DNA from: an uncultured Gammaproteobacteria bacterium
GTDB lineage: Bacteria; Patescibacteriota; Patescibacteriia; UBA1558; 2-01-FULL-52-15
Assembly: GCA_964540995.1 (NCBI GenBank)
Contig: CAZIOU010000003.1
Span: forward strand, 576-64,575
Reading direction: 5' to 3'
DNA: 64,000 nucleotides
A program made the translations under genes and the position numbers. Position 1 is the first letter of the stretch. Each line of letters starts with the position of its first letter. Of this stretch, positions 10,209 to 52,347 are shown in pieces. Below the pieces are notes generated by a model. That model saw only the letters and a program-made list of their open reading frames with translations, made no database searches and had not been told where the DNA came from.

Positions 10209-11516
10209 TTGAGATCGGGTAAGGTTAGCCTTATTTATTTGCTACTGCTGGTGCTTATCGGCGGAGGGGTTTTCTGGTTTCTACGTCAATCAGACTGGAA
10301 ACAGACCAAAAGCTTGGTCAAGCAGGCTACCAGTGAAGCCAAAGCCAAATCAGAAGTACCATCCAGAGTGATCGAGATCCCGAGCGGAGAGACTTTCGGG
10401 GCGCTACTACAAGACAATGGATTTACCGGTGCTGAAGCGCAGGCCATAGTTGAAGCAAGTAAAGATGTCTATGATCTGACTACGATCCGCGCTGGTAAGA
10501 AGATAGAGCTTTATACTGATGAGGCAGGGGAGGTGCAGAAGTTGAAATATAATATTAATACGGAAGAGTACTTAGAGGTTAGTCGGGACTCGTCACTCGG
10601 TACTGGGAAGTCCAATTCTCAAGTCACGAGCATCGACTCTTCAGTGACGAGCACCGAGTACCGAGTCCCAAGTCCCCATCCCTGGACTGCTGTGAAAGTC
10701 AAAGTTCCGTACGAAGTCAAGATTCAGACAGCACAAGGTACGGTCAAAGATATTTTCTATTCTTCGGCCTTGGAGCAGGGGATAGATGAATTATTGGTTT
10801 TGGACATTGCCGATCTATTTCAATGGCAAGTTGATTTCGCCTTGGACATTCGTAACGGTGATAGTTATAAGGTCATCTACGAAGCCCGTTATCTGGACGG
10901 TAAATACGTCATGCCTGGTAAGATTTTGGCAGCCGAATTTATTAACCAAGGCCAAAGCTATAAGGCGTTCAATTTCACTGACGCCGAAGGTAATGACAGT
11001 TATTATGATCAAGATGGTAATTCGACCGAGAAGATGTTCCTCAAAGCACCGGTATCCTTCAAATATATTTCTTCCGGCTTCACGACCGGTAAACGTTATG
11101 TTAGCGCGTTCAATGTTTCTACTGGTCACCGAGCGATTGATTATGCCGCTGCCGCTGGTACACCCATACGCGCTACAGCTGACGGCACGGTCACGTATGC
11201 TGGTTGGACCAACGCCGGCTACGGCAATCTGACGAGTATTCGCCACAACAGTACCTATTCTACTAATTACGGCCATCAGTCTAAGATTCTTGTTAAGGTG
11301 GGGCAGAAGGTCAAGCAAGGCCAGACTATCGGCTACGTCGGCTCTACTGGATTCTCGACCGGTCCACATCTGCATTATGAAATGGTCAAGAACGGTGTGA
11401 AGATCAATCCGCAACACGAAGTCTTACCACCAGGGAAATCTCTTGGAGCTGAAAGTAAAGAAGCCTTTGCTCAAGTTGTAGCTGAATATAGTCAGAAGTT
11501 AGAGGCGATTAAATAA
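10209..11516 (+). CDS. M23 family metallopeptidase (membrane-anchored), TTG start
   Basis: N-terminal TM; 'HRAIDYAA..GTPIRATADGTVTYAG', 'GYVGSTGFSTGPHLHYEM'. Confidence 0.85.
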   Translation: MRSGKVSLIYLLLLVLIGGGVFWFLRQSDWKQTKSLVKQATSEAKAKSEVPSRVIEIPSGETFGALLQDNGFTGAEAQAIVEASKDVYDLTTIRAGKKIELYTDEAGEVQKLKYNINTEEYLEVSRDSSLGTGKSNSQVTSIDSSVTSTEYRVPSPHPWTAVKVKVPYEVKIQTAQGTVKDIFYSSALEQGIDELLVLDIADLFQWQVDFALDIRNGDSYKVIYEARYLDGKYVMPGKILAAEFINQGQSYKAFNFTDAEGNDSYYDQDGNSTEKMFLKAPVSFKYISSGFTTGKRYVSAFNVSTGHRAIDYAAAAGTPIRATADGTVTYAGWTNAGYGNLTSIRHNSTYSTNYGHQSKILVKVGQKVKQGQTIGYVGSTGFSTGPHLHYEMVKNGVKINPQHEVLPPGKSLGAESKEAFAQVVAEYSQKLEAIK

Positions 11517-33294: not shown

Positions 33295-33579
33295 ATGGCA
33301 AAAGGTATTACTAAGTCTCAAATGCTTGAGGCATTAGCCACCAAGACCGGTCACTCCAAGAAGGATGTGGCTGCAATGTTGGAAGCTGTAGCTAACCTAG
33401 CTTACAGCGAAGTTAAGAAAAACGGAGAAATTACCATCCCAGGAATTGGTAAATTGGTCAAGAAGCACCGTGCAGCTCGCATGGGTCGCAACCCGGCCAC
33501 TGGCGCAGAGATCAAAATCCCAGCCAAAACCGTAGTAAAGTTCAAGGTTGCAAAGGCTGCCAAGGACGCTATTCTATAG
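33295..33579 (+). CDS. hup: DNA-binding protein HU
   Basis: 'GFGKF', arm 'RMGRNPATGAEIKIPA'. Confidence 0.9.
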   Translation: MAKGITKSQMLEALATKTGHSKKDVAAMLEAVANLAYSEVKKNGEITIPGIGKLVKKHRAARMGRNPATGAEIKIPAKTVVKFKVAKAAKDAIL

Positions 33580-33712: not shown

Positions 33713-33931
33713 ATAGTTAAAACTTATTGTTAAAAAATACCCCCAACCGTTAGGTCGGGGGTTGAAAGCTGATTTGGTTCAGTTCGCTATTGAGGCGAAC
33801 CTGTCCATGAGATAGGGTAGCCAGCAGATCACCGTGCCGTAAGAATGTCCACAACATGTAGCCGTAGACAGCCAGACAGGCTAGTAGTAGATTCCTCGGA
33901 AGCGGATATGTCCTATGCTTTGACATCTCCT

Positions 33932-34393
33932 TCAGCCCTTGTGGTCGGCGGGAGTGATGTGACACAGAACTCGGTCTCCCTCCATGAGTGCCACTGAACC
34001 ACCGCGATCGTCCATCAAAGCTGTGAGATATGCGATAAAATCACTGTAACTCCTCGAGCTTCTAAAGAATACCTTCCATTCACTCAACTGCAGAGAACGC
34101 TTGGGGGTCTGGTTTGACCTCGGCATAACTAGGCCTAGGAATTTGCCATTGGCCATGATTGGGGTGGGGAAGTCACCATTCGCATCGATGGTACTTGTGA
34201 GAATCTCAAAAAATGTCGCTGCCGCCTTGTCATCTTTGAAGAAGCCAACAGGAGTTGGTTGATCGCTGGGCGGAGTTTGGAATTGTTTGATCAGAGCAAA
34301 AACCTTATCATAGGCGGCAGAGGCGTCTTGATCGATGAAAAGGTGGCGGTAATGGGCCAACTCAATAAGTACTTTGTTGGGTGTCTCAGACAT
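33932..34393 (-). CDS. hypothetical protein
   Basis: AAGGAG 8 nt upstream of the ATG on the minus strand. Confidence 0.5.
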   Translation of the reverse strand: MSETPNKVLIELAHYRHLFIDQDASAAYDKVFALIKQFQTPPSDQPTPVGFFKDDKAAATFFEILTSTIDANGDFPTPIMANGKFLGLVMPRSNQTPKRSLQLSEWKVFFRSSRSYSDFIAYLTALMDDRGGSVALMEGDRVLCHITPADHKG

Positions 34394-34480
34394 GGAACAA
34401 CTCCTTGGTTGAGAGCGGTGGTGTAAAGGAACGGAGCGTAATGAAACTACTAGATTTAGCTAATTTAGTCAATAAAAAGT

Positions 34481-34840
34481 GCCGCCTAAGTTTCCTTAGG
34501 CGGCGATCTGCTACATGGCCCCTTGCGAACAAGGGATAGCGACTTGTTTAAGGTCATCTATTATTGCCGCAGCAGAAGGAAGGTGGAGGCAGCGTTCAAA
34601 CTTACTAGAGCTCTACGGAACCTAAGTTTCCTTAGGCAGGTCCATGGAGAGTTTGGTAACTCTACCGTAGTAACTATAGCAGCGAGTCTGCCTCCAATGA
34701 TAAGGTACGATCCCCTCGAATGCTATCGTAGGATAGCTCGCGACCGTCCCGCTGGAAGCATTTCAACGGGATCGCACCAAAATGGCTGGGTGGCTCACAG
34801 AGTGGTCAAAAAATCGCGTGTTCGACCCAGAGCGTCCTCC
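34481..34840. ncRNA. candidate structured RNA or decayed RNA gene, identity unresolved
   Basis: About 360-bp GC-enriched non-coding stretch with many stable hairpins (GCCGCCTAAG-TTTCC-TTAGGCGGC; CCCCTTG-CGAA-CAAGGG; GGAGGCAG..CTGCCTCC long-range pair). The only ORF is Arg-rich junk. It lies next to a tyrosine integrase, a classic tmRNA/tRNA context. I could not find tmRNA (GGGG..TCCACCA, T-loop) or RNase P (AAGUCCGG, GGUAAGAGCGCACC) signatures. Confidence 0.3.
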
Positions 34841-35037
34841 TTTTACAAGTAAGAACAACTCATCTCTGTGAGACGCACCCAAAGGTACAATATAAGGGGG
34901 TACAACCGGAACAGCTTCGGCCTTACACTAACACTCGTTTGAGGTTAGATGACTGTAACCGGTCGTACCCGCAACCAGCGCACTTTAGCACACTGGTCTA
35001 ATGTGTCAAATTATTTCAGGGGGTATTTGGCACTATG

Positions 35038-35589
35038 TCACAAGCGCTGTCGACACTCATATATCTTAAACTCGATCACTTCATTTTCGTTGGGTATGTA
35101 TAGAATGGTCGCGTCCTTCATACTTGAGAGATTGTAGGCAAGTTTGTATAGACTCGTTGTTCCGATTTCAACATAAATCTTTTGATTATCTTTTTCGGCC
35201 AGTAAGTCTGCGGTTCCAAAATTGGTATGAGGTTCCTGTAATATAGTGTAGTCTTCGAATTCAAAATAGTTAACTACTTTATTCATCATATCAAAATGCC
35301 AATCGGCACCATGTTTTTTCGTTAGATTCTTACGGTTTACTGAATGGCCAGTGTGTTCCCATAGAGTAGAGGATTTTAGCTCCTTCACCGCGACGTCACC
35401 AGTAACTATGAGGATAGCAATGTGCCTCAAAAGGCATTTAGAGCATGAAATGGGTTCATTGATATGAGGACTCTGAGCTTGCTGAATTTTCGAACTTAGC
35501 CATTGTATTTCTTTATGAAGGTGTTTCTCTACAACATCCCAGGGTAAACTTGATGGTTGTTTATTCATTCTTGATATCCTTTCCACCAT
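35038..35589 (-). CDS. hypothetical protein, possibly PD-(D/E)xK-type nuclease
   Basis: 'GTADLLAEKDNQKIYVEIG' resembles a D..E.K core. It overlaps the integrase 3' end by 29 nt. Confidence 0.4.
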   Translation of the reverse strand: MVERISRMNKQPSSLPWDVVEKHLHKEIQWLSSKIQQAQSPHINEPISCSKCLLRHIAILIVTGDVAVKELKSSTLWEHTGHSVNRKNLTKKHGADWHFDMMNKVVNYFEFEDYTILQEPHTNFGTADLLAEKDNQKIYVEIGTTSLYKLAYNLSSMKDATILYIPNENEVIEFKIYECRQRL

Positions 35590-36517
35590 GATATTTGCTG
35601 TGAATATCTTTTAGTTGTTTATTAGTAACATGTGTATAGATCTGAGTAGTGGCAATATTTTTGTGTCCTAGAAATTCTTGTACTAATCTTAGGTCAACGC
35701 CATGAATAAGTAGGTCGGTGGCATAGGAGTGTCTCAGTGTATGTGGTGAAGCGTCTAGTGCAATACCAGCTAGGCGCGTATATTTCTGCACGATACGCTC
35801 CATAGAACGAGGTGTCAGACGATTAGCTTTGGAGGCGATATTAAAGCTATGTGAAATAAATAGTGCTTTGTCATCATCATTACGTTCATGAAGATACTTC
35901 TGTAACCAGTCGAGACAACGAACCGAAAAATAAACGGTTCTTACACGATTACCTTTACCGATAACCGGCACTTCCAGACTAATCTTTTGTTGCTTAGCGG
36001 GTATTCGCTCCTTATTGAGTGCCGTTAGTTCTGAAACTCGCAAACCAGTGGAGAATAGGGTTTCTAAGATAGCTCTATCTCGAAGTCCAATGATAGTTTC
36101 TAAATCAGGTGTAAGCAGTAAACGTTCAATTTGATCGAGAGATAAAAATTTTATTTTTTGACCTGATTTATCGTCCTTAGCCAATTTTACCTTATCAGGT
36201 GCTATGCAGGGTATATTCTTGTCACTGAAATAACTTAATAATGATCTTAGAGCAATTAGATAATAATTTTGAGTAGTGCGTTTGAGTGGTTTGTCATTCG
36301 AAGTATTCCTTTTCGACAAGAAAATTCTATATTGCCAAAGCAGGTCAGTCGTCAAAAGAGGGGGAGTGAGATCGGGTTGCTTAATTGTTTGAAGCCAGTC
36401 AGTAAATTTTTTTAGATAGCGATCATAATTAATTTGAGTAGTCTGAGATAGACCGCGTTCAATTTCTAGATATTCTAATAAATCTGGGATGTAAGCTCGG
36501 ATCGATTTGTAAACCAT
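35561..36517 (-). CDS. tyrosine-type site-specific recombinase/integrase
   Basis: 'TLRHSYATDLLIHGVDLRLVQEFLGHKNIATTQIYTHV' (R..H..R..Y catalytic set) and an N-terminal SAM-like core-binding domain. Confidence 0.9.
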   Translation of the reverse strand: MVYKSIRAYIPDLLEYLEIERGLSQTTQINYDRYLKKFTDWLQTIKQPDLTPPLLTTDLLWQYRIFLSKRNTSNDKPLKRTTQNYYLIALRSLLSYFSDKNIPCIAPDKVKLAKDDKSGQKIKFLSLDQIERLLLTPDLETIIGLRDRAILETLFSTGLRVSELTALNKERIPAKQQKISLEVPVIGKGNRVRTVYFSVRCLDWLQKYLHERNDDDKALFISHSFNIASKANRLTPRSMERIVQKYTRLAGIALDASPHTLRHSYATDLLIHGVDLRLVQEFLGHKNIATTQIYTHVTNKQLKDIHSKYHGGKDIKNE

Positions 36518-37079
36518 AGAGGAGTGTTAATTATTAGTTGTTGTGGACAACTATAGTATGTCGCACAATATATGTAAAGCGACATGTAAATAATAACGTA
36601 TCCCAATAAAGCCGTCAAACGCTACAGTAATGATCGTTTTGACCCTGTGCCCTACTACGTAAATCAAATTTTGAATTCAAGGTACAATATGACCTGAAAT
36701 TTCAATTTGTACGCTCTTCTATCGGTTTCGTCCGTTACTCCTATCTCTTTAGCTACGACGCATTTAAAGCCTCGTTTGAGGATGGCTACGGTACTCGGTA
36801 CTAGGTGCTCGTTTAGATCTATTAGGGCATCTATGACCTAAGTCGCTCTTAGTGACACTAGCTAGCACTTATTCAGTTAATGCGCTTTGGGTCATCTATG
36901 ACCTGAATTGGTAAATTTAAATTCAACTGACGTTCGTGTTGGATAGATCAGACCACTACGGCTCGTTTCGAATTATGTTTAGGAGGTATGTCGCCTCCAA
37001 AAATGCACTGGTGGGCTATGTGTCGTAAAATATATTGCTGCATGGGACTCGGTACTAGGTGCTCGGGACTCGAAAAGAA

Positions 37080-37110
37080 ACACCGCCTCGATGTTTGAGA
37101 CGGTGTTGTG
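37080..37110 (-). terminator. rho-independent terminator of the serS-alr-ftsQ transcription unit
   Basis: On the minus strand: AACACCGTCTC-AAACATC-GAGGCGGTGTT followed by TCTTTTC. Confidence 0.6.
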
Positions 37111-37132
37111 GACGTTGGGCGTCCGAAGATTA

Positions 37133-37393
37133 TTAGTTGCGAATGGGCTTACGACCGCGCTTGGCTGCTGGCGGTCGACGGGTGAAGGGATTGATCAGGT
37201 CATGACGGGCAATCCAGGCTGATAGACATGATCTGGCGCCGCCCTCCTCTATTTCGAAATCGGTGGCTTGGAATGAACTACCTCCAATGGCAAATATTCC
37301 ATGAATCTCGTCGGCAATTTGTTGGCGTTCGGGCTTGCGAACAATGAATGGAGTCTCTTCAACTTTCTTTCGCCATACCCTGCACCTGATCAT
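37133..37393 (-). CDS. hypothetical small protein
   Basis: 86-aa ORF at the operon end. Confidence 0.35.
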   Translation of the reverse strand: MIRCRVWRKKVEETPFIVRKPERQQIADEIHGIFAIGGSSFQATDFEIEEGGARSCLSAWIARHDLINPFTRRPPAAKRGRKPIRN

Positions 37394-37428
37394 GGTCTTT
37401 TCCGCCCTGGTTAGAAGTGGGAAAGCAA

Positions 37429-38274
37429 CTACTTGAAATAAACATGATCTCCAAAACGAAGATCAACATACTGGATAGTAGCAGGAATTACATTTTGGTC
37501 AAGCAGGTCACGCAGACGCTGGATCTGTGGACCAAAGGCATCGCTAGAACTGAAAAGGACGCGGTAGCCTCGTGAAGTTGAGACGATTAGCTGTCGGTCA
37601 TCATCGTTGAGGTGGAATTTGCTGATAGTAATCATGTCAGTTGGGAAATTCCAGGCCTGACGAATGGCTGACGCTTTTTCTAAATAGTCAGTACTAATCC
37701 ATTGACTGCGGTCAGAACGCTCATCAGCAATGACTACATTGGTAGGGATCGTCGTGCTAGCTAGATCTCCTAGTTGCTGCCCGCGATAATCCAATTGGGT
37801 GAAAGCTTCTGGAGTCTGTCGCACGAAGGGTAAGATACGTTCCTCGCCTTTGATGTGTAATGTATTGGGGAACTGCTTCCGTATGATTACATTCTTGAGC
37901 CAGAAATCGTCAGTTAATTGTTGCTGTAATTTTCCTGATTTAAATAAAAGAAAATTACTATTTTTAAAGATTAGCCAGCGATGCTGCTGCAAAACCGGAT
38001 TAATACGTTGATCAAGCTGCTCTCGTGGTATATCGGGTAAGCCTTCGATAGTGACGTGACTCAATGCCAGCCATGGCACCTGGAAGATACTCTGCCCGAT
38101 CAAAAATATTGCAATGATCCCCATTACTAGATAAGCGCGAGACATCGTCCTTTGGGCCGGTGGTTCGCGGTAATAGTCATAGACTTGCCGCCGACGAGGT
38201 TCGTTGGCTACACGAGTCGTATCGAGTCGGTAGAAACGATTACTAGGAGTTTGTTGACGCTTCTTCAGGAACAT
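37429..38274 (-). CDS. ftsQ: cell division protein FtsQ/DivIB-like (POTRA)
   Basis: Cytoplasmic basic N-terminus, one TM, POTRA 'VTIEGL', C-terminal 'VDLRFGDHVYFK'. Confidence 0.7.
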   Translation of the reverse strand: MFLKKRQQTPSNRFYRLDTTRVANEPRRRQVYDYYREPPAQRTMSRAYLVMGIIAIFLIGQSIFQVPWLALSHVTIEGLPDIPREQLDQRINPVLQQHRWLIFKNSNFLLFKSGKLQQQLTDDFWLKNVIIRKQFPNTLHIKGEERILPFVRQTPEAFTQLDYRGQQLGDLASTTIPTNVVIADERSDRSQWISTDYLEKASAIRQAWNFPTDMITISKFHLNDDDRQLIVSTSRGYRVLFSSSDAFGPQIQRLRDLLDQNVIPATIQYVDLRFGDHVYFK

Positions 38275-40798: not shown

Positions 40799-41170
40799 TC
40801 AGGCTTTGAGCGTTCTGATAAGACCATTGATGAGTTTATGGGTCGTTATAATTCCTTGATCAAGCAGATCATATTCGGGTTTTGTTATCTGGTTAATATC
40901 ATGACAGATATAAATTTGACTTTGAAGTTCCGTTAATGATCCGAGTGCGATAGCTAAGAGTTGAATTTTGTCTTTCTTACCCCTACGAGAAAACGATTCT
41001 GCAATATTGGAAGTGACTGATACAGTTGCACGTCGCATCTGCGATGTTAGTCCGAATCGTTCAGTGTCAGGAAAAGTCGATGTTATGCGATAAATGCGAT
41101 TTACAATTTTGGCTGCTTCTTGCCAAGCGTACAAATCTTTGAATGACGTTATCTTCTGATTGGCGCACAT
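40799..41170 (-). CDS. four-helix-bundle protein (family formerly called 23S rRNA intervening-sequence protein)
   Basis: 'FKDLYAWQEAAKIVNRIYRIT..FP..ERFGLTSQMRRATVSVTSNIAE' is typical of the family. Confidence 0.8.
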   Translation of the reverse strand: MCANQKITSFKDLYAWQEAAKIVNRIYRITSTFPDTERFGLTSQMRRATVSVTSNIAESFSRRGKKDKIQLLAIALGSLTELQSQIYICHDINQITKPEYDLLDQGIITTHKLINGLIRTLKA

Positions 41171-51194: not shown

Positions 51195-52347
51195 TAAGCT
51201 GGTTAGCCTTGGTGGTCCAATCAGGTAAGGTTTGGAGCTGATTGTAAGCGGCTTCGCCTAATTGTTGGCGCACTTCTGGATGGTCTAGTAGGTATTTCAG
51301 ATTAGCACTAATCGCTTCCAGTGAGGTGCTATCAACCAACAAACCGCTAACTTCGTGCTGCAGTATTTCTTCGGCTGAAGTATGTTGACCAGCGATGATC
51401 GGCAAGTGGAAATGAGCAGCGTCGAGATAGACGATGCCATAGCCTTCGATATCAGCACCAAGATTCAGTGTGGGTAACATGAAGATATCGGCTGCCTGAT
51501 AGTAGTTAGCAATATCCTCGTCACTGACATCAGTTAGGAAGGAAACCTGATCATTAATTTTCAGTTCGGTTGCGAGATGCTGTAAGGAAGCTAATTCTGG
51601 ACCGTTGCCAACGATGAGATAGTGACTATCATCACGACCCAAGGCATTCATCGCTTTCAACATCAGTTCATGATTCTTGCGTTTCACTAGACGACTAACA
51701 GTAAGGATGATCTGTTGGCCGACAAACTGTTGCTTGATAGCGGCGACACGCACTGGATCGGCTACCAGTCGTCCTGTCATGTACGGTGTGATCACGGTTA
51801 ATTTATTGGCCGGCAAAAGTGGCGCTACGATGGATCGGGTTGTTTCGCTGTTGACGATGACGTGATGGGCATTGGTCAGTAGACGAATGGCAGTCGTGCG
51901 ATCTTTGGCCAAAGCCAGATTGATATCCAGACCGTGTAATGACAAAACGTAGGGAAGGTTTAATTTCTTGCCGACTTTTTCCGCGATCAAGCCCAGCGGC
52001 AAAATGTGTGGTGTGAAAATAAGTTCAATCTTTTGTTGCTGACACAATTTCTTGACATTACGATAACCAGTTAGCCAGCGCGGGCGGAAGAGCTTTCCGA
52101 GAAGAGGTACTCGGTGCTCGTTACTAGGTACTCGGGAAGACGCGGGCGACCGAGTCGCGAGTAGCGAGTCGCTAGTACCGATTTGTCCGTCTCGAGCACC
52201 AAGTGACGAGTCCCCAGCCCCGCTCTTCATATCATGCGCCACAATATAATTTTGCTGTGGCAAATGTGAAAATAAACCGTAGCAATAATTGGCAATGCCG
52301 CCGCGGAAGGGGAAATATTCGTGTGTGAGGAGAAGGGTTTTTTTCAT
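51178..52347 (-). CDS. family-1 (GT4-like) glycosyltransferase carrying an in-frame insertion of repeat element B
   Basis: N-terminus 'MKKTLLLTHEYFPFRGGIANY' and C-terminus 'EGYGIVYLDAAHFHLPIIAG' are typical GT4. Residues about 42-85 (SGAGDSSLGARDGQIGTSDSLLATRSPASSRVPSNEHRVP) are low-complexity and are encoded by the element at 52090-52215. Confidence 0.8.
   Translation of the reverse strand: MKKTLLLTHEYFPFRGGIANYCYGLFSHLPQQNYIVAHDMKSGAGDSSLGARDGQIGTSDSLLATRSPASSRVPSNEHRVPLLGKLFRPRWLTGYRNVKKLCQQQKIELIFTPHILPLGLIAEKVGKKLNLPYVLSLHGLDINLALAKDRTTAIRLLTNAHHVIVNSETTRSIVAPLLPANKLTVITPYMTGRLVADPVRVAAIKQQFVGQQIILTVSRLVKRKNHELMLKAMNALGRDDSHYLIVGNGPELASLQHLATELKINDQVSFLTDVSDEDIANYYQAADIFMLPTLNLGADIEGYGIVYLDAAHFHLPIIAGQHTSAEEILQHEVSGLLVDSTSLEAISANLKYLLDHPEVRQQLGEAAYNQLQTLPDWTTKANQLNAILS
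52085..52215. repeat. palindromic MITE-like element, copy B (inside a CDS, inverted relative to A)
   Basis: GGTACTCGGTGCTCGTTACTAGGTACTCGGGAAGACGCGGGCGACCGAGTCGCGAGTAGCGAGTC...GAGTCCCCAGCCCC. Shares GAAGACGCG..CCGAGTCGCGAGTA.CGAGTC and CCCAGCCCC blocks with revcomp(A). Confidence 0.7.

What the first reader, a model, noticed from the sequence alone, without database searches (positions are those of the whole stretch)
34394..37130. Tyrosine integrase flanked by an unassigned 360-nt structured-RNA-like region and a repeat-rich 590-bp non-coding block
The integrase (35561-36517) and a possible PD-(D/E)xK protein (35038-35589) sit between two non-coding blocks.

Block (i), 34481-34840, is GC-enriched and hairpin-dense, with two related CCUAAGUUUCCUUAGG hairpins and long-range complementary GGAGGCAG/CTGCCTCC. 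It has the look of an RNA gene (tmRNA and tRNA genes are classic integrase targets), but I could not find tmRNA or RNase P signatures.

Block (ii), 36540-37130, has no ORFs. It contains direct repeats (CATCTATGACCT at 36833 and 36893; ATGACCTGAA at about 36690 and 36897) and two half-copies of the palindromic element core (GGTACTCGGTACTAGGTGCTCG at about 36800 and 37045).

Together this looks like a small integrated element or its remnant, possibly with a novel or highly divergent RNA attachment site.
Basis: partly seen in the sequence, partly recalled or inferred. Interest (0 to 1): 0.55.

Follow-up and report, generated by a model that had tools for sequence, protein, structure and literature searches.

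The report
Xer/dif module plus orphan RNA gene
The "integrase island" is most likely the host's own chromosome-untangling recombinase (Xer) with its DNA target site next to it, a nuclease-like partner gene, and a separate structured RNA gene of unknown function found only in a narrow group of ultra-small (CPR) bacteria.

Summary
The described features are all present, with small coordinate offsets. The interpretation as an integrated element with an RNA attachment site is not supported.

The 318-aa recombinase (36517-35561, minus strand) belongs to a Xer family found across Patescibacteria/CPR at 46-62% identity. A 28-bp dif-like imperfect palindrome (36558-36585) lies 41 nt upstream of its start. 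Equivalent sites lie just upstream of xer in about half of 85 related loci. In 26 of 44 of those loci the GC skew switches sign at xer, never in the opposite sense. This window's own clade shows no switch.

The 183-aa ORF has a PD-(D/E)xK (Hjc/YraN-like) fold. It belongs to a family that lies next to xer or is fused to a Xer paralog.

Block (i) is a real RNA gene on the minus strand, about 34976-34473. It has its own promoter and intrinsic terminator. Diverged homologs sit between xer and hup in three related lineages. Its 3' domain shows 12 of 27 compensatory base pairs. It matches no Rfam family, tRNA or tmRNA, and its function is unknown.

Block (ii) holds dif, the xer promoter and a strain-variable spacer with heptamer repeats.

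The parts
36558..36585 (.). dif-like 28-bp imperfect palindrome, ATGTCGCACAA-TATATG-TAAAGCGACAT. It is the candidate Xer recombination site and lies 41 nt upstream of the xer start codon.
   Evidence: Unique in the 64-kb window. The same kind of site lies within 400 nt upstream of xer in 43 of 85 loci, a 14-fold enrichment. Relatives' sites share up to 16 contiguous nt with E. coli dif. It is conserved in L008, L096, L097 and L104 while the surrounding spacer is not.
36550..36578 (-). Predicted xer promoter: -35 TTTACA lies inside the dif-like site, then a 17-nt spacer, then -10 TATAGT.
   Evidence: Consensus scan, 10 of 12 matches. The block dif + ACTATA(G/C)TT(G/A)TCCACA is conserved in four diverged relatives. 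Function is inferred.
35561..36517 (-). xer: a Xer-type tyrosine recombinase, 318 aa.
   Evidence: Pfam E=4e-40. Full-length matches to NCBIfam XerD and XerC at 1e-65, below their equivalog cut-offs. Best solved-structure match is XerD 1a0p. The catalytic residues R160, K188, H259, R262, H285 and Y294 are invariant in alignment A1. More than 597 relatives across CPR classes.
35038..35589 (-). p183: a Xer-associated protein with a C-terminal PD-(D/E)xK (Hjc/YraN-like) fold. The alternative start at 35568 gives 176 aa.
   Evidence: No Pfam, PHROGs or PADLOC hit; a faint NCBIfam YraN hit at E=0.0095. The family has 156 cluster representatives, and about 40 of the best 100 are C-terminal fusions to a Xer-like recombinase. 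AF2 model pLDDT 85.6, pTM 0.80. The top high-probability Foldseek PDB hits (probability 0.96-0.99) are PD-(D/E)xK proteins, with weak E-values of 0.013-0.1. Invariant D128, E141, K149 and nearly invariant E119.
34982..35009 (-). Promoter of the ncRNA gene: TTGACA, 16-nt spacer, TG-n-TAAAGT (extended -10).
   Evidence: Consensus scan. In strain L004 and in relative L096 both hexamers are kept while the spacer differs.
34473..34976 (-). Orphan structured ncRNA gene, about 505 nt. The ends are predicted from the promoter and terminator, not measured.
   Evidence: z=-9.2. No Rfam, tRNA or tmRNA match. Homologous genes lie between xer and hup in L096/L105/L106, L097 and L104.
34474..34575 (-). Conserved 3' domain of the ncRNA: a three-way junction (outer stem with a bulge, a hairpin with the conserved 9-nt loop CYUAAAYAR, and a variable hairpin with a UUCG loop here), followed by the terminator.
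   Evidence: Covariance model R1 hit, 92.7 bits. On alignment A7, 96.2% of cells are paired and 12 of 27 pairs are compensatory. 0 of 500 shuffles reach this; slid controls give 29-47% paired.
34481..34504 (-). Intrinsic terminator hairpin of the ncRNA (GCCGCCUAAG-GAAA-CUUAGGCGGC, then a U-run).
   Evidence: Terminator scan. The stem covaries in relatives.
36600..37650 (.). Strain-hypervariable patch, 72-94% identity in an otherwise ~100% identical background. It covers most of block (ii), the 86-aa ORF (37133-37393, minus) and the 3' end of ftsQ, and it ends about 15 nt from the dif-like site.
   Evidence: Identity profile and alignment against L001 and L004.
36790..37065 (+). Two 22-nt blocks of 7-nt-period repeats (GGTACTC GGTACTA GGTGCTC G) at 36790-36811 and 37044-37065. 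They bound a 241-nt segment (36806-37046) that is absent from strains L005 and L006.
   Evidence: Relatives carry other heptamer runs, of the TAATAAC type, at the same relative position.
33915..34441 (-). Second hypervariable patch. It holds the 153-aa ORF (34393-33932) with its own promoter. In all other strains this ORF is replaced by a diverged 62-aa allele. A 58-aa predicted membrane ORF follows at 33926-33750.

Best explanation
The interval is not an integrated element. It is the chromosomal Xer/dif module of a CPR (Komeilibacteria-like) bacterium, followed by an unrelated small-RNA gene.

**Proposed Xer/dif mechanism**
1. Xer binds the two arms of the 28-bp dif-like site at 36558-36585, just upstream of its own gene.
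2. It exchanges strands through a Holliday-junction intermediate to resolve chromosome dimers. This would work like the single-gene modules XerS/difSL and XerH/difH.
3. Because the predicted -35 box of xer lies inside the site, Xer binding probably also represses xer. This is inferred.

**The 183-aa protein**
- It is translationally coupled to xer and has a PD-(D/E)xK, Hjc-like fold.
- It is a dedicated Xer partner. In other lineages the same domain is fused to a second, catalytically altered Xer paralog encoded directly upstream of a canonical xer.
- It most likely acts on the recombination intermediate, for example by cutting or holding the Holliday junction, or by nicking at dif. This is inferred, not shown.

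**The RNA**
- Downstream, an independent sigma-70-type promoter drives a highly structured RNA of about 505 nt that ends at an intrinsic terminator.
- The RNA has a variable multi-branched 5' part and a conserved 3' three-way junction.
- It is most likely a trans-acting regulatory or protein-binding RNA restricted to this clade. Its function is unknown.

**Shown:** gene identities, site conservation and position, gene fusions, the fold, promoter and terminator conservation, and covariation.
**Inferred:** all biochemical activities.
For: **Xer identity**
- Full-length XerD/XerC matches and an intact catalytic set.
- More than 597 relatives at 46-62% identity across CPR classes, all of uniform length.
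- Same synteny in L008, L103 and L104.

**dif**
- ATTATGCGAA is the top upstream 10-mer, present in 27 loci.
- Full sites lie 35-135 nt upstream of xer in most loci that have one.
- Up to 16 contiguous nt and 20 of 28 positions are identical to E. coli dif.
- GC skew is +/- across xer in 26 of 44 loci and -/+ in none.
- The published single-recombinase precedents have dif adjacent to the gene (PMC5357621, PMC1914069).

**p183**
- Adjacent to xer in Gribaldobacteria, Buchananbacteria and Jorgensenbacteria loci.
- Fused to Xer-like domains.
- The fusion genes lie directly upstream of a canonical xer, with a dif-like site in front.
- Fold evidence.

**RNA**
- Fold z-scores.
- Promoter hexamers conserved with a variable spacer.
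- Covariation.
- Covariance-model hits only in this clade.
Against: - In this window and its closest relatives the GC skew does not switch at xer/dif; it has the same sign for at least 27 kb on both sides. A terminus location is therefore not shown for this genome.
- xer and p183 are 7-8 GC points below the window average, which is unusual for the family (mean difference +0.006).
- Xer scores fall below the NCBIfam equivalog cut-offs.
- The PD-(D/E)xK assignment rests on weak Foldseek E-values (0.013-0.1) and a non-canonical motif: there is no K two residues after E141.
- RNA covariation rests on only four distinct sequences.
- There are no expression data, and the RNA's function is a guess.
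- Whether this genome has a second Xer could not be checked.
Confidence: 0.72

Rival explanations
1. One reading: a small integrated mobile element, or its remnant, whose integrase targeted a novel RNA gene (block i). Block (ii) would be the other element end.
For: - Low GC of xer and p183.
- A 12-nt direct repeat AAGGTACAATAT at 34882 and 36679 brackets the two genes.
- Strain-variable DNA lies on both sides.
Against: - The recombinase is conserved phylum-wide and is syntenic in relatives.
- A dif-like site lies upstream as in its homologs.
- No tRNA or tmRNA here or in 60 related loci.
- RNA homologs sit downstream of xer in relatives that lack p183.
- The 12-mer repeat is at chance level: about 0.4 expected in 3.5 kb, and near-matches in the window equal the shuffle expectation.
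- No PHROGs or PADLOC hits and no phage or plasmid similarity.
Confidence: 0.04
2. The dif-xer-p183 cassette is itself a horizontally exchanged housekeeping module. It would have replaced the native copy in this lineage. This would explain the low GC, the absence of a skew switch, and the divergence patch that begins next to dif.
For: - The GC deficit is specific to this genome.
- p183 is distributed patchily among distant CPR lineages.
- The hypervariable tract ends about 15 nt from dif.
- No skew switch in this clade.
Against: - The closest xer relatives (77-82% identity) come from the same clade and the same synteny.
- These relatives lack p183, so at most p183 was added.
- No flanking repeats or mobility genes.
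Confidence: 0.12
3. The palindrome at 36558-36585 is only an operator or promoter element of xer, and the true dif lies elsewhere.
For: - The -35 box lies inside the site.
- No skew switch here.
- Half-site-like TGTCGCA(C/T)AAT motifs occur many times in some loci, possibly as promoters.
Against: - The site has the full architecture of two arms plus a 6-bp centre.
- Its arm-plus-centre sequence resembles bacterial dif.
- In most other CPR loci it coincides with the skew switch.
- The two roles are not mutually exclusive.
Confidence: 0.08
4. The RNA is a regulator of the downstream 153-aa ORF, acting in cis or as an antisense RNA, rather than a general trans-acting RNA.
For: - RNA positions 34706-34687 are complementary in 18 of 20 nt to the ORF153 mRNA at 34321-34302 (inverted repeat I1). 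About 3e-4 such matches are expected for this pair of sequences (my calculation).
- The internal hairpin and the terminator hairpin have identical sequences and could swap strands.
Against: - All other strains keep an identical RNA but carry a 62-aa allele without the complementary stretch.
- In L097 and L104 the RNA is followed directly by the convergent hup gene, with no ORF in between.
- ORF153 has its own promoter.
Confidence: 0.08

Closest known systems
XerS/difSL (streptococci, lactococci) and XerH/difH (epsilon-proteobacteria): single-recombinase Xer modules
   Same: - A Xer-type tyrosine recombinase gene with its imperfect-palindrome recombination site immediately upstream, forming one genetic module (PMC1914069, PMC5357621).
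- In most CPR relatives the module lies at the GC-skew switch.
   Different: - The protein is XerC/D-sized (318 aa, against about 356 aa) and scores best against the XerD and XerC models.
- The site is 28 bp with a 6-bp centre and resembles classical dif, whereas difSL is 31 bp with an 11-bp centre.
- A PD-(D/E)xK partner gene is attached.
- This clade shows no skew switch.
- That Xer is the only recombinase in this genome was not verified.
XerC/XerD with dif (E. coli, B. subtilis)
   Same: - Catalytic residues and domain layout.
- CPR sites share CGCATAATGTATATTA with E. coli dif.
- Lineages with the fusion protein have two different Xer paralogs and asymmetric arms.
   Different: - Here there is one xer gene at the site, and the outer arms are near-symmetric (ATGTCGC ... 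GCGACAT).
- The gene lies adjacent to the site rather than far from it.
Archaeal Holliday-junction resolvase Hjc / bacterial YraN (UPF0102) PD-(D/E)xK nucleases
   Same: - The fold of p183 residues about 95-176.
- A faint YraN sequence match.
- Conserved acidic residues and a lysine.
   Different: - An extra N-terminal helical domain with a partly conserved Cys...Cys pair (C49/C52 of p183).
- A non-canonical motif: E141-x-G, with the conserved K eight residues later.
- Obligate genomic linkage or fusion to Xer recombinases.
- No activity has been shown.
Integrase islands at tRNA/tmRNA genes, and IMEX elements integrated at dif
   Same: - A tyrosine recombinase next to a structured RNA gene.
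- Variable DNA beside a dif-like site.
   Different: - No tRNA-like 3' end and no att duplication.
- The recombinase is conserved and syntenic.
- The variable DNA differs by substitutions and small indels, not by an inserted element flanked by dif copies.

Membership tests
Xer/dif chromosome-dimer-resolution module | Tyrosine recombinase with the complete catalytic set R-K-H-R-H/W-Y and XerC/D-like two-domain layout | tested here: met
   R160, K188, H259, R262, H285 and Y294 are invariant in alignment A1. Pfam SAM-like and catalytic domains are present. XerD/XerC NCBIfam matches run full length at 1e-65, but at 220 bits they are below the equivalog cut-offs of 330-335.
Xer/dif chromosome-dimer-resolution module | A 28-31-bp site made of two imperfect inverted 11-bp arms around a 6-8-bp centre, conserved among relatives | tested here: met
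   The site at 36558-36585 has arms ATGTCGCACAA and ATGTCGCTTTA (reverse complement) and centre TATATG. It is conserved in L008, L096, L097 and L104 and, in variant form, in 43 of 85 loci.
Xer/dif chromosome-dimer-resolution module | Vertical, near-universal presence in the lineage (a housekeeping gene) | tested here: met
   More than 597 confirmed relatives in GTDB species representatives from many CPR classes, at 46-62% identity. 8000 hits at E<1e-20.
Xer/dif chromosome-dimer-resolution module | The site lies at the replication terminus (GC-skew switch) and is single-copy | tested here: not met
   The site is unique within the 64-kb window. However, the skew keeps the same sign for at least 27 kb on both sides here and in L008, L103 and L104. 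In the wider family the feature is met: 26 of 44 loci switch +/- at xer and none switch -/+.
Xer/dif chromosome-dimer-resolution module | Xer-dependent recombination at the site; dependence on FtsK | not testable with these tools
   Needs biochemistry or genetics.
Integrase-bearing genomic island at a tRNA/tmRNA gene | A tRNA or tmRNA gene at one element end | tested here: not met
   ARAGORN and Rfam find nothing at 34300-35100. There is no tRNA-like acceptor or T-arm and no G3:U70 pair (by inspection). No tRNA or tmRNA lies adjacent to xer in 60 loci.
Integrase-bearing genomic island at a tRNA/tmRNA gene | attL/attR direct repeats and presence/absence polymorphism of the element | tested here: not met
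   The only flanking repeat is a chance-level 12-mer. xer is present at the same locus in all relatives examined.
Integron (IntI + attI + cassettes) | IntI-specific sequence signature; attC-bounded cassettes | tested here: not met
   The integron-integrase models match only the C-terminal ~74 residues, at 56-87 bits against cut-offs of 265-435. No attC-like repeats were found.
PD-(D/E)xK nuclease superfamily (p183) | alpha-beta-beta-beta-alpha-beta core fold | tested here: met
   AF2 model with pLDDT 85.6. The top high-probability Foldseek PDB hits are 3fov, Hjc, the R2 RLE domain and Bax1, at probability 0.96-0.99 but E-values of only 0.013-0.1 and TM-scores of 0.37-0.43 on the small targets.
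PD-(D/E)xK nuclease superfamily (p183) | Catalytic D ... (D/E)-x-K motif | tested here: inconclusive
   D128, E141 and K149 are invariant and E119 nearly so in 25 sequences. The lysine is 8 residues after E141, not 2.
Any Rfam 15 RNA family (tmRNA, RNase P, 6S, SRP, introns, riboswitches and others) | A covariance-model match | tested here: not met
   No match at gathering thresholds, and none up to E=10 except chance miRNA hairpins on the terminator. None in the homologous regions of L096, L097 and L008.
Independent bacterial ncRNA gene | Own promoter, own intrinsic terminator, and conserved secondary structure with compensatory changes | tested here: met
   Promoter and terminator. 12 of 27 compensatory pairs, 96% of cells paired, 0 of 500 shuffles reach this. 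Transcription itself was not tested.

The most novel reading that the evidence does not exclude
Two previously undescribed things may be here.

1. CPR bacteria may run a compact dif-xer module in which a dedicated Hjc-like PD-(D/E)xK domain is an integral part of Xer recombination. The domain is either free or fused to a catalytically altered Xer paralog. It could, for example, resolve or process the Holliday-junction intermediate, which might make the reaction independent of FtsK.
2. A new class of structured RNA of about 250-500 nt is genetically tied to the xer-hup interval in Komeilibacteria-like lineages.
Probability: 0.3. Interest if true: 0.65.

Novelty: new variant of a known kind. Interest (0 to 1): 0.45.

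Why it matters
- **Annotation:** many CPR "integrases" are probably housekeeping Xer enzymes with an adjacent dif. These should not be read as markers of mobile elements or prophages. The dif-like site also gives a ready marker for the replication terminus in most CPR genomes.
- **Mechanism:** the recurrent linkage and fusion of a restriction-endonuclease-fold domain to Xer points to an unstudied accessory activity in a well-understood recombination pathway. It can be tested directly with purified proteins and synthetic junctions.
- **RNA:** this is an orphan with real covariation but a very narrow distribution. Its wider importance is uncertain.

Tried and rejected
**tmRNA idea**
- The minus-strand stretch GGAGGACGCUCUGGGUCGAAC resembles a tmRNA 5' end.
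- Rejected: there is no T-arm, no 7-bp acceptor stem with G3:U70, no CCA context and no tag ORF. ARAGORN and Rfam are silent.

**RNase P, 6S and SRP**
- Their signature sequences are not visible in the RNA by my reading of it, and no Rfam model matches.

**Searches for further RNA homologs**
- nhmmer over 1 Mb of xer loci found none.
- blastn against phages and plasmids found none.
- A degenerate 28-nt pattern over JGI metagenome contigs gave one chance hit inside a proteobacterial gene.
- A profile and a covariance model over all loci hit only the known clade.

**Targets of the RNA**
- The conserved loop has no complementary match in the available sequence.

**Second dif-like site**
- GTGTCGTAAAATAT at 37020 lies in inverted orientation, which would suggest an invertible switch.
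- It has three mismatches, which is chance level, and no inverted variants occur among the strain contigs.

**IMEX insertion at dif**
- The variable DNA is a substitution and indel tract, not an insert flanked by dif copies.

**Libraries that were unavailable**


Full report
**1. What is in the sequence**

All genes of the interval lie on the minus strand. The order, 5' to 3' on that strand, is as follows.

| Feature | Coordinates |
|---|---|
| ftsQ-like gene | 38274-37429 |
| 86-aa ORF | 37393-37133 |
| Terminator | 37107-37079 |
| Non-coding block of about 590 nt | block (ii) |
| Tyrosine recombinase | 36517-35561 |
| 183-aa ORF overlapping its end | 35589-35038 |
| Promoter-like site | 35009-34982 |
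| Highly structured non-coding stretch | block (i) |
| Intrinsic terminator | 34504-34481 |
| 153-aa ORF | 34393-33932 |
| 58-aa ORF | 33926-33750 |
| Convergent HU gene (plus strand) | 33295-33579 |

Near-identical contigs from aquatic metagenomes were found (L001-L007). The closest named relative is a "Candidatus Komeilibacteria" MAG, whose HU is 89% identical.

**2. The recombinase is the lineage's Xer, not an element integrase**

- It matches the XerD and XerC models over their full length at 1e-65, below the equivalog cut-offs.
- Its best solved-structure relative is XerD.
- It keeps every catalytic residue.
- More than 8000 database proteins match. The best are 58-62% identical, have the same length, and come from many CPR classes.
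They span Paceibacteria, Nealsonbacteria, Falkowbacteria, Kuenenbacteria, Magasanikbacteria, Curtissbacteria, Saccharimonadales and others.
- Closer relatives keep the same neighbourhood, alr-ftsQ ... xer ... hup-PMT-GT2 (L008, L103, L104).
- No tRNA or tmRNA gene lies beside xer in 60 related loci.
- There are no phage, defence, plasmid or phage-DNA matches.

**3. A dif-like site sits directly upstream**

- K-mer counting in the 450 nt upstream of xer across 83 loci gave ATTATGCGAA in 27 loci. A second variant, ATTGTGCGAC / GTAAAGCGAC, is the one in this window.
- The instances are full sites of two arms around a 6-bp centre. An example is ACTTCGCATAATGTAGATTAAGCGAAGTAT. They usually lie 35-135 nt upstream of xer.
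- The core is 14-fold enriched in that 400-nt zone, and 43 of 85 loci have it there.
- The window's site is ATGTCGCACAA-TATATG-TAAAGCGACAT at 36558-36585 and is unique in the window.
- It is conserved in L008, L096, L097 and L104, although the surrounding spacers have diverged beyond alignment.
- Sites in some lineages share 16 contiguous nucleotides with the E. coli dif 28-mer. I confirmed that 28-mer to be single-copy in 5424 of 5426 E. coli genomes.
- Across 44 loci with enough flanking DNA, GC skew is positive upstream and negative downstream of xer in 26, and the reverse in none. This is what a terminus site predicts.
- A recombination site immediately upstream of the recombinase gene is the published hallmark of the single-recombinase systems XerS/difSL and XerH/difH (PMC1914069, PMC5357621).
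- No paper in the searchable library links CPR with Xer/dif.
- One caveat applies. In this window and its closest relatives the skew keeps one sign on both sides. The terminus criterion is therefore not met for this genome, although gene orientation does converge at about 33.6 kb.
- The predicted -35 box of xer lies inside the site. This suggests autoregulation, which is an inference.

**4. The 183-aa protein is a Xer partner with a nuclease fold**

- It has no Pfam, PHROGs or PADLOC match and only a faint YraN hit.
- The word-indexed search found three clusters. One comes from Gribaldobacteria, where the gene again directly follows xer.
- tblastn found further copies beside xer in Buchananbacteria and Jorgensenbacteria loci.
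- An exhaustive profile search found 156 cluster representatives. About 40 of the best 100 are proteins of 430-500 aa in which the domain is C-terminal.
- In those fusions the N-terminal part is a Xer-like recombinase, 32-40% identical to the window's Xer. The first arginine is often lysine and the first histidine of HxxR is replaced. The second arginine, the later histidine and the tyrosine are kept.
- These fusion genes lie directly upstream of a canonical xer of 314-316 aa. A dif-like site with different, asymmetric arms lies in front.
- A 25-sequence alignment gave a confident model, with pLDDT 85.6 and pTM 0.80.
- The best high-probability structural matches are PD-(D/E)xK proteins: YraN-like 3fov, Hjc, the R2 restriction-like endonuclease domain and Bax1. 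Their E-values are weak.
The fusions make a functional link to Xer very likely. The activity itself is not shown.

**5. Block (i) is a real, orphan RNA gene on the minus strand**

- The minus strand folds with z=-7.5 to -9.2, against -4.0 for the plus strand.
- On that strand the hairpins carry GAAA and UUCG loops, and the last hairpin plus a U-run is an intrinsic terminator.
- The promoter is TTGACA, a 16-nt spacer, then TGcTAAAGT. In strain L004 and in relative L096 both boxes are kept while the spacer is rewritten.
- Relatives with Xer at 77-82% identity, or HU at 88-89% identity, carry a gene with promoter, structured RNA and terminator in the same place, between xer and hup. These are L096/L105/L106, L097 and L104. 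None of them has the 183-aa gene.
- Their RNAs fold with z=-4.6 and -5.7.
- The 5' parts differ in sequence and length, at about 505, 295 and 245 nt. The last ~100 nt are homologous: an outer stem with a bulge, a hairpin with the loop CYUAAAYAR, a variable hairpin and the terminator.
- On the four distinct sequences, 96.2% of pair cells are standard pairs and 12 of 27 pairs show changes on both sides. No shuffle out of 500 reaches this. Sliding the partners by 1-3 columns drops pairing to 29-47%.
- No Rfam family, tRNA or tmRNA matches here or in the relatives.
- Homologs were not found elsewhere.
- Across CPR, the gap after xer is typically about 50 nt. The RNA gene is therefore specific to this clade and is not part of the Xer system in general.
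- Its function is unknown. A trans-acting regulatory or protein-binding RNA is the default guess.

**6. Block (ii) and strain variation**

- Apart from dif and the xer promoter, block (ii) is a fast-evolving spacer.
- Against strains L001-L004 the genome is about 100% identical except for two patches. One is 36600-37650 at 72-94% identity, ending about 15 nt from dif. The other is 33915-34441, where the 153-aa ORF is replaced by a diverged 62-aa allele.
- The two 22-nt repeats are runs of a 7-nt unit. The 241 nt between them are missing in L005 and L006.
- Relatives carry other heptamer runs at the same relative position.
- Similar runs occur inside genes at 10.6 and 52.1 kb.

**7. Verdict**

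The "integrated element with an RNA attachment site" reading is not supported. What is there is a Xer/dif housekeeping module of a kind already known, apparently not yet described for CPR. It carries an unusual nuclease-fold partner. Next to it lies a clade-restricted orphan structured RNA with good but thin covariation support.

The residual oddities are the low GC of xer and p183 and the missing skew switch in this clade.

Noticed in passing
L100:216-2633, L102:6001-8425, L099:167-2106: Proteins of 471-495 aa that fuse a Xer-like recombinase with partly substituted catalytic residues to the p183 domain. They are encoded directly upstream of a canonical xer of 314-316 aa. A dif-like site with asymmetric arms (GAGTATAAT-AACYCT-TRCACT) lies just in front.
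   Followed up: partly
L103:8508-10012: In a Komeilibacteria MAG with the same alr-ftsQ ... hup synteny, xer (328 aa) is preceded by an HNH endonuclease gene (165 aa) instead of being followed by p183. An ABC transporter occupies the place of the RNA gene. This is a second, unrelated nuclease type beside xer.
   Followed up: no
window 36600-37650 and 33915-34441: Two hypervariable patches, down to 72% and about 60% identity with indels, bracket a 2.1-kb invariant core (dif-xer-p183-RNA). The strains are otherwise about 100% identical. The cause is unknown; candidates are imported recombination tracts, diversifying selection, or exchange linked to dif.
   Followed up: partly
window 34687-34706 vs 34302-34321: 18 of 20 nt are complementary between the ncRNA and the coding region of the 153-aa ORF downstream. 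About 3e-4 such matches are expected for this pair of sequences. The complementarity is not present in strains carrying the 62-aa allele.
   Followed up: partly
44 xer loci (L010-L095): GC skew switches from positive to negative exactly across xer in 26 of 44 CPR loci and never in the opposite sense. xer therefore has a fixed orientation relative to the terminus. The xer/dif pair could serve as a terminus marker for CPR MAGs.
   Followed up: partly
window 40799-41170 (minus): A 123-aa ORF whose identical copy in L001 carries hits to PF05635 (23S rRNA-intervening-sequence protein) and, weakly, to bAvd, the accessory protein of diversity-generating retroelements. I did not look for a reverse transcriptase in the window.
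   Followed up: no
window 10600-10680 and 52105-52215: Runs of the same 7-nt-period motif (GGTACTC, GGTGCTC and their complements) as in block (ii) occur inside long ORFs, partly as inverted copies about 76 nt apart.
   Followed up: no
L074, L053, L071, L046 (MAGs labelled Saccharibacteria): The half-site-like motif TGTCGCA(C/T)AATAA occurs 3-7 times per ~7-13-kb locus, often after GAGCGGGG. It may be a promoter or terminator-proximal element that merely resembles the dif arm.
   Followed up: no
window 33750-33926 (minus): A 58-aa ORF with a good Shine-Dalgarno sequence (AAGGAG) and a hydrophobic segment directly follows the variable 153-aa ORF. It is conserved in the other strains. The 153-aa and 62-aa alleles share only their N- and C-terminal parts.
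   Followed up: no
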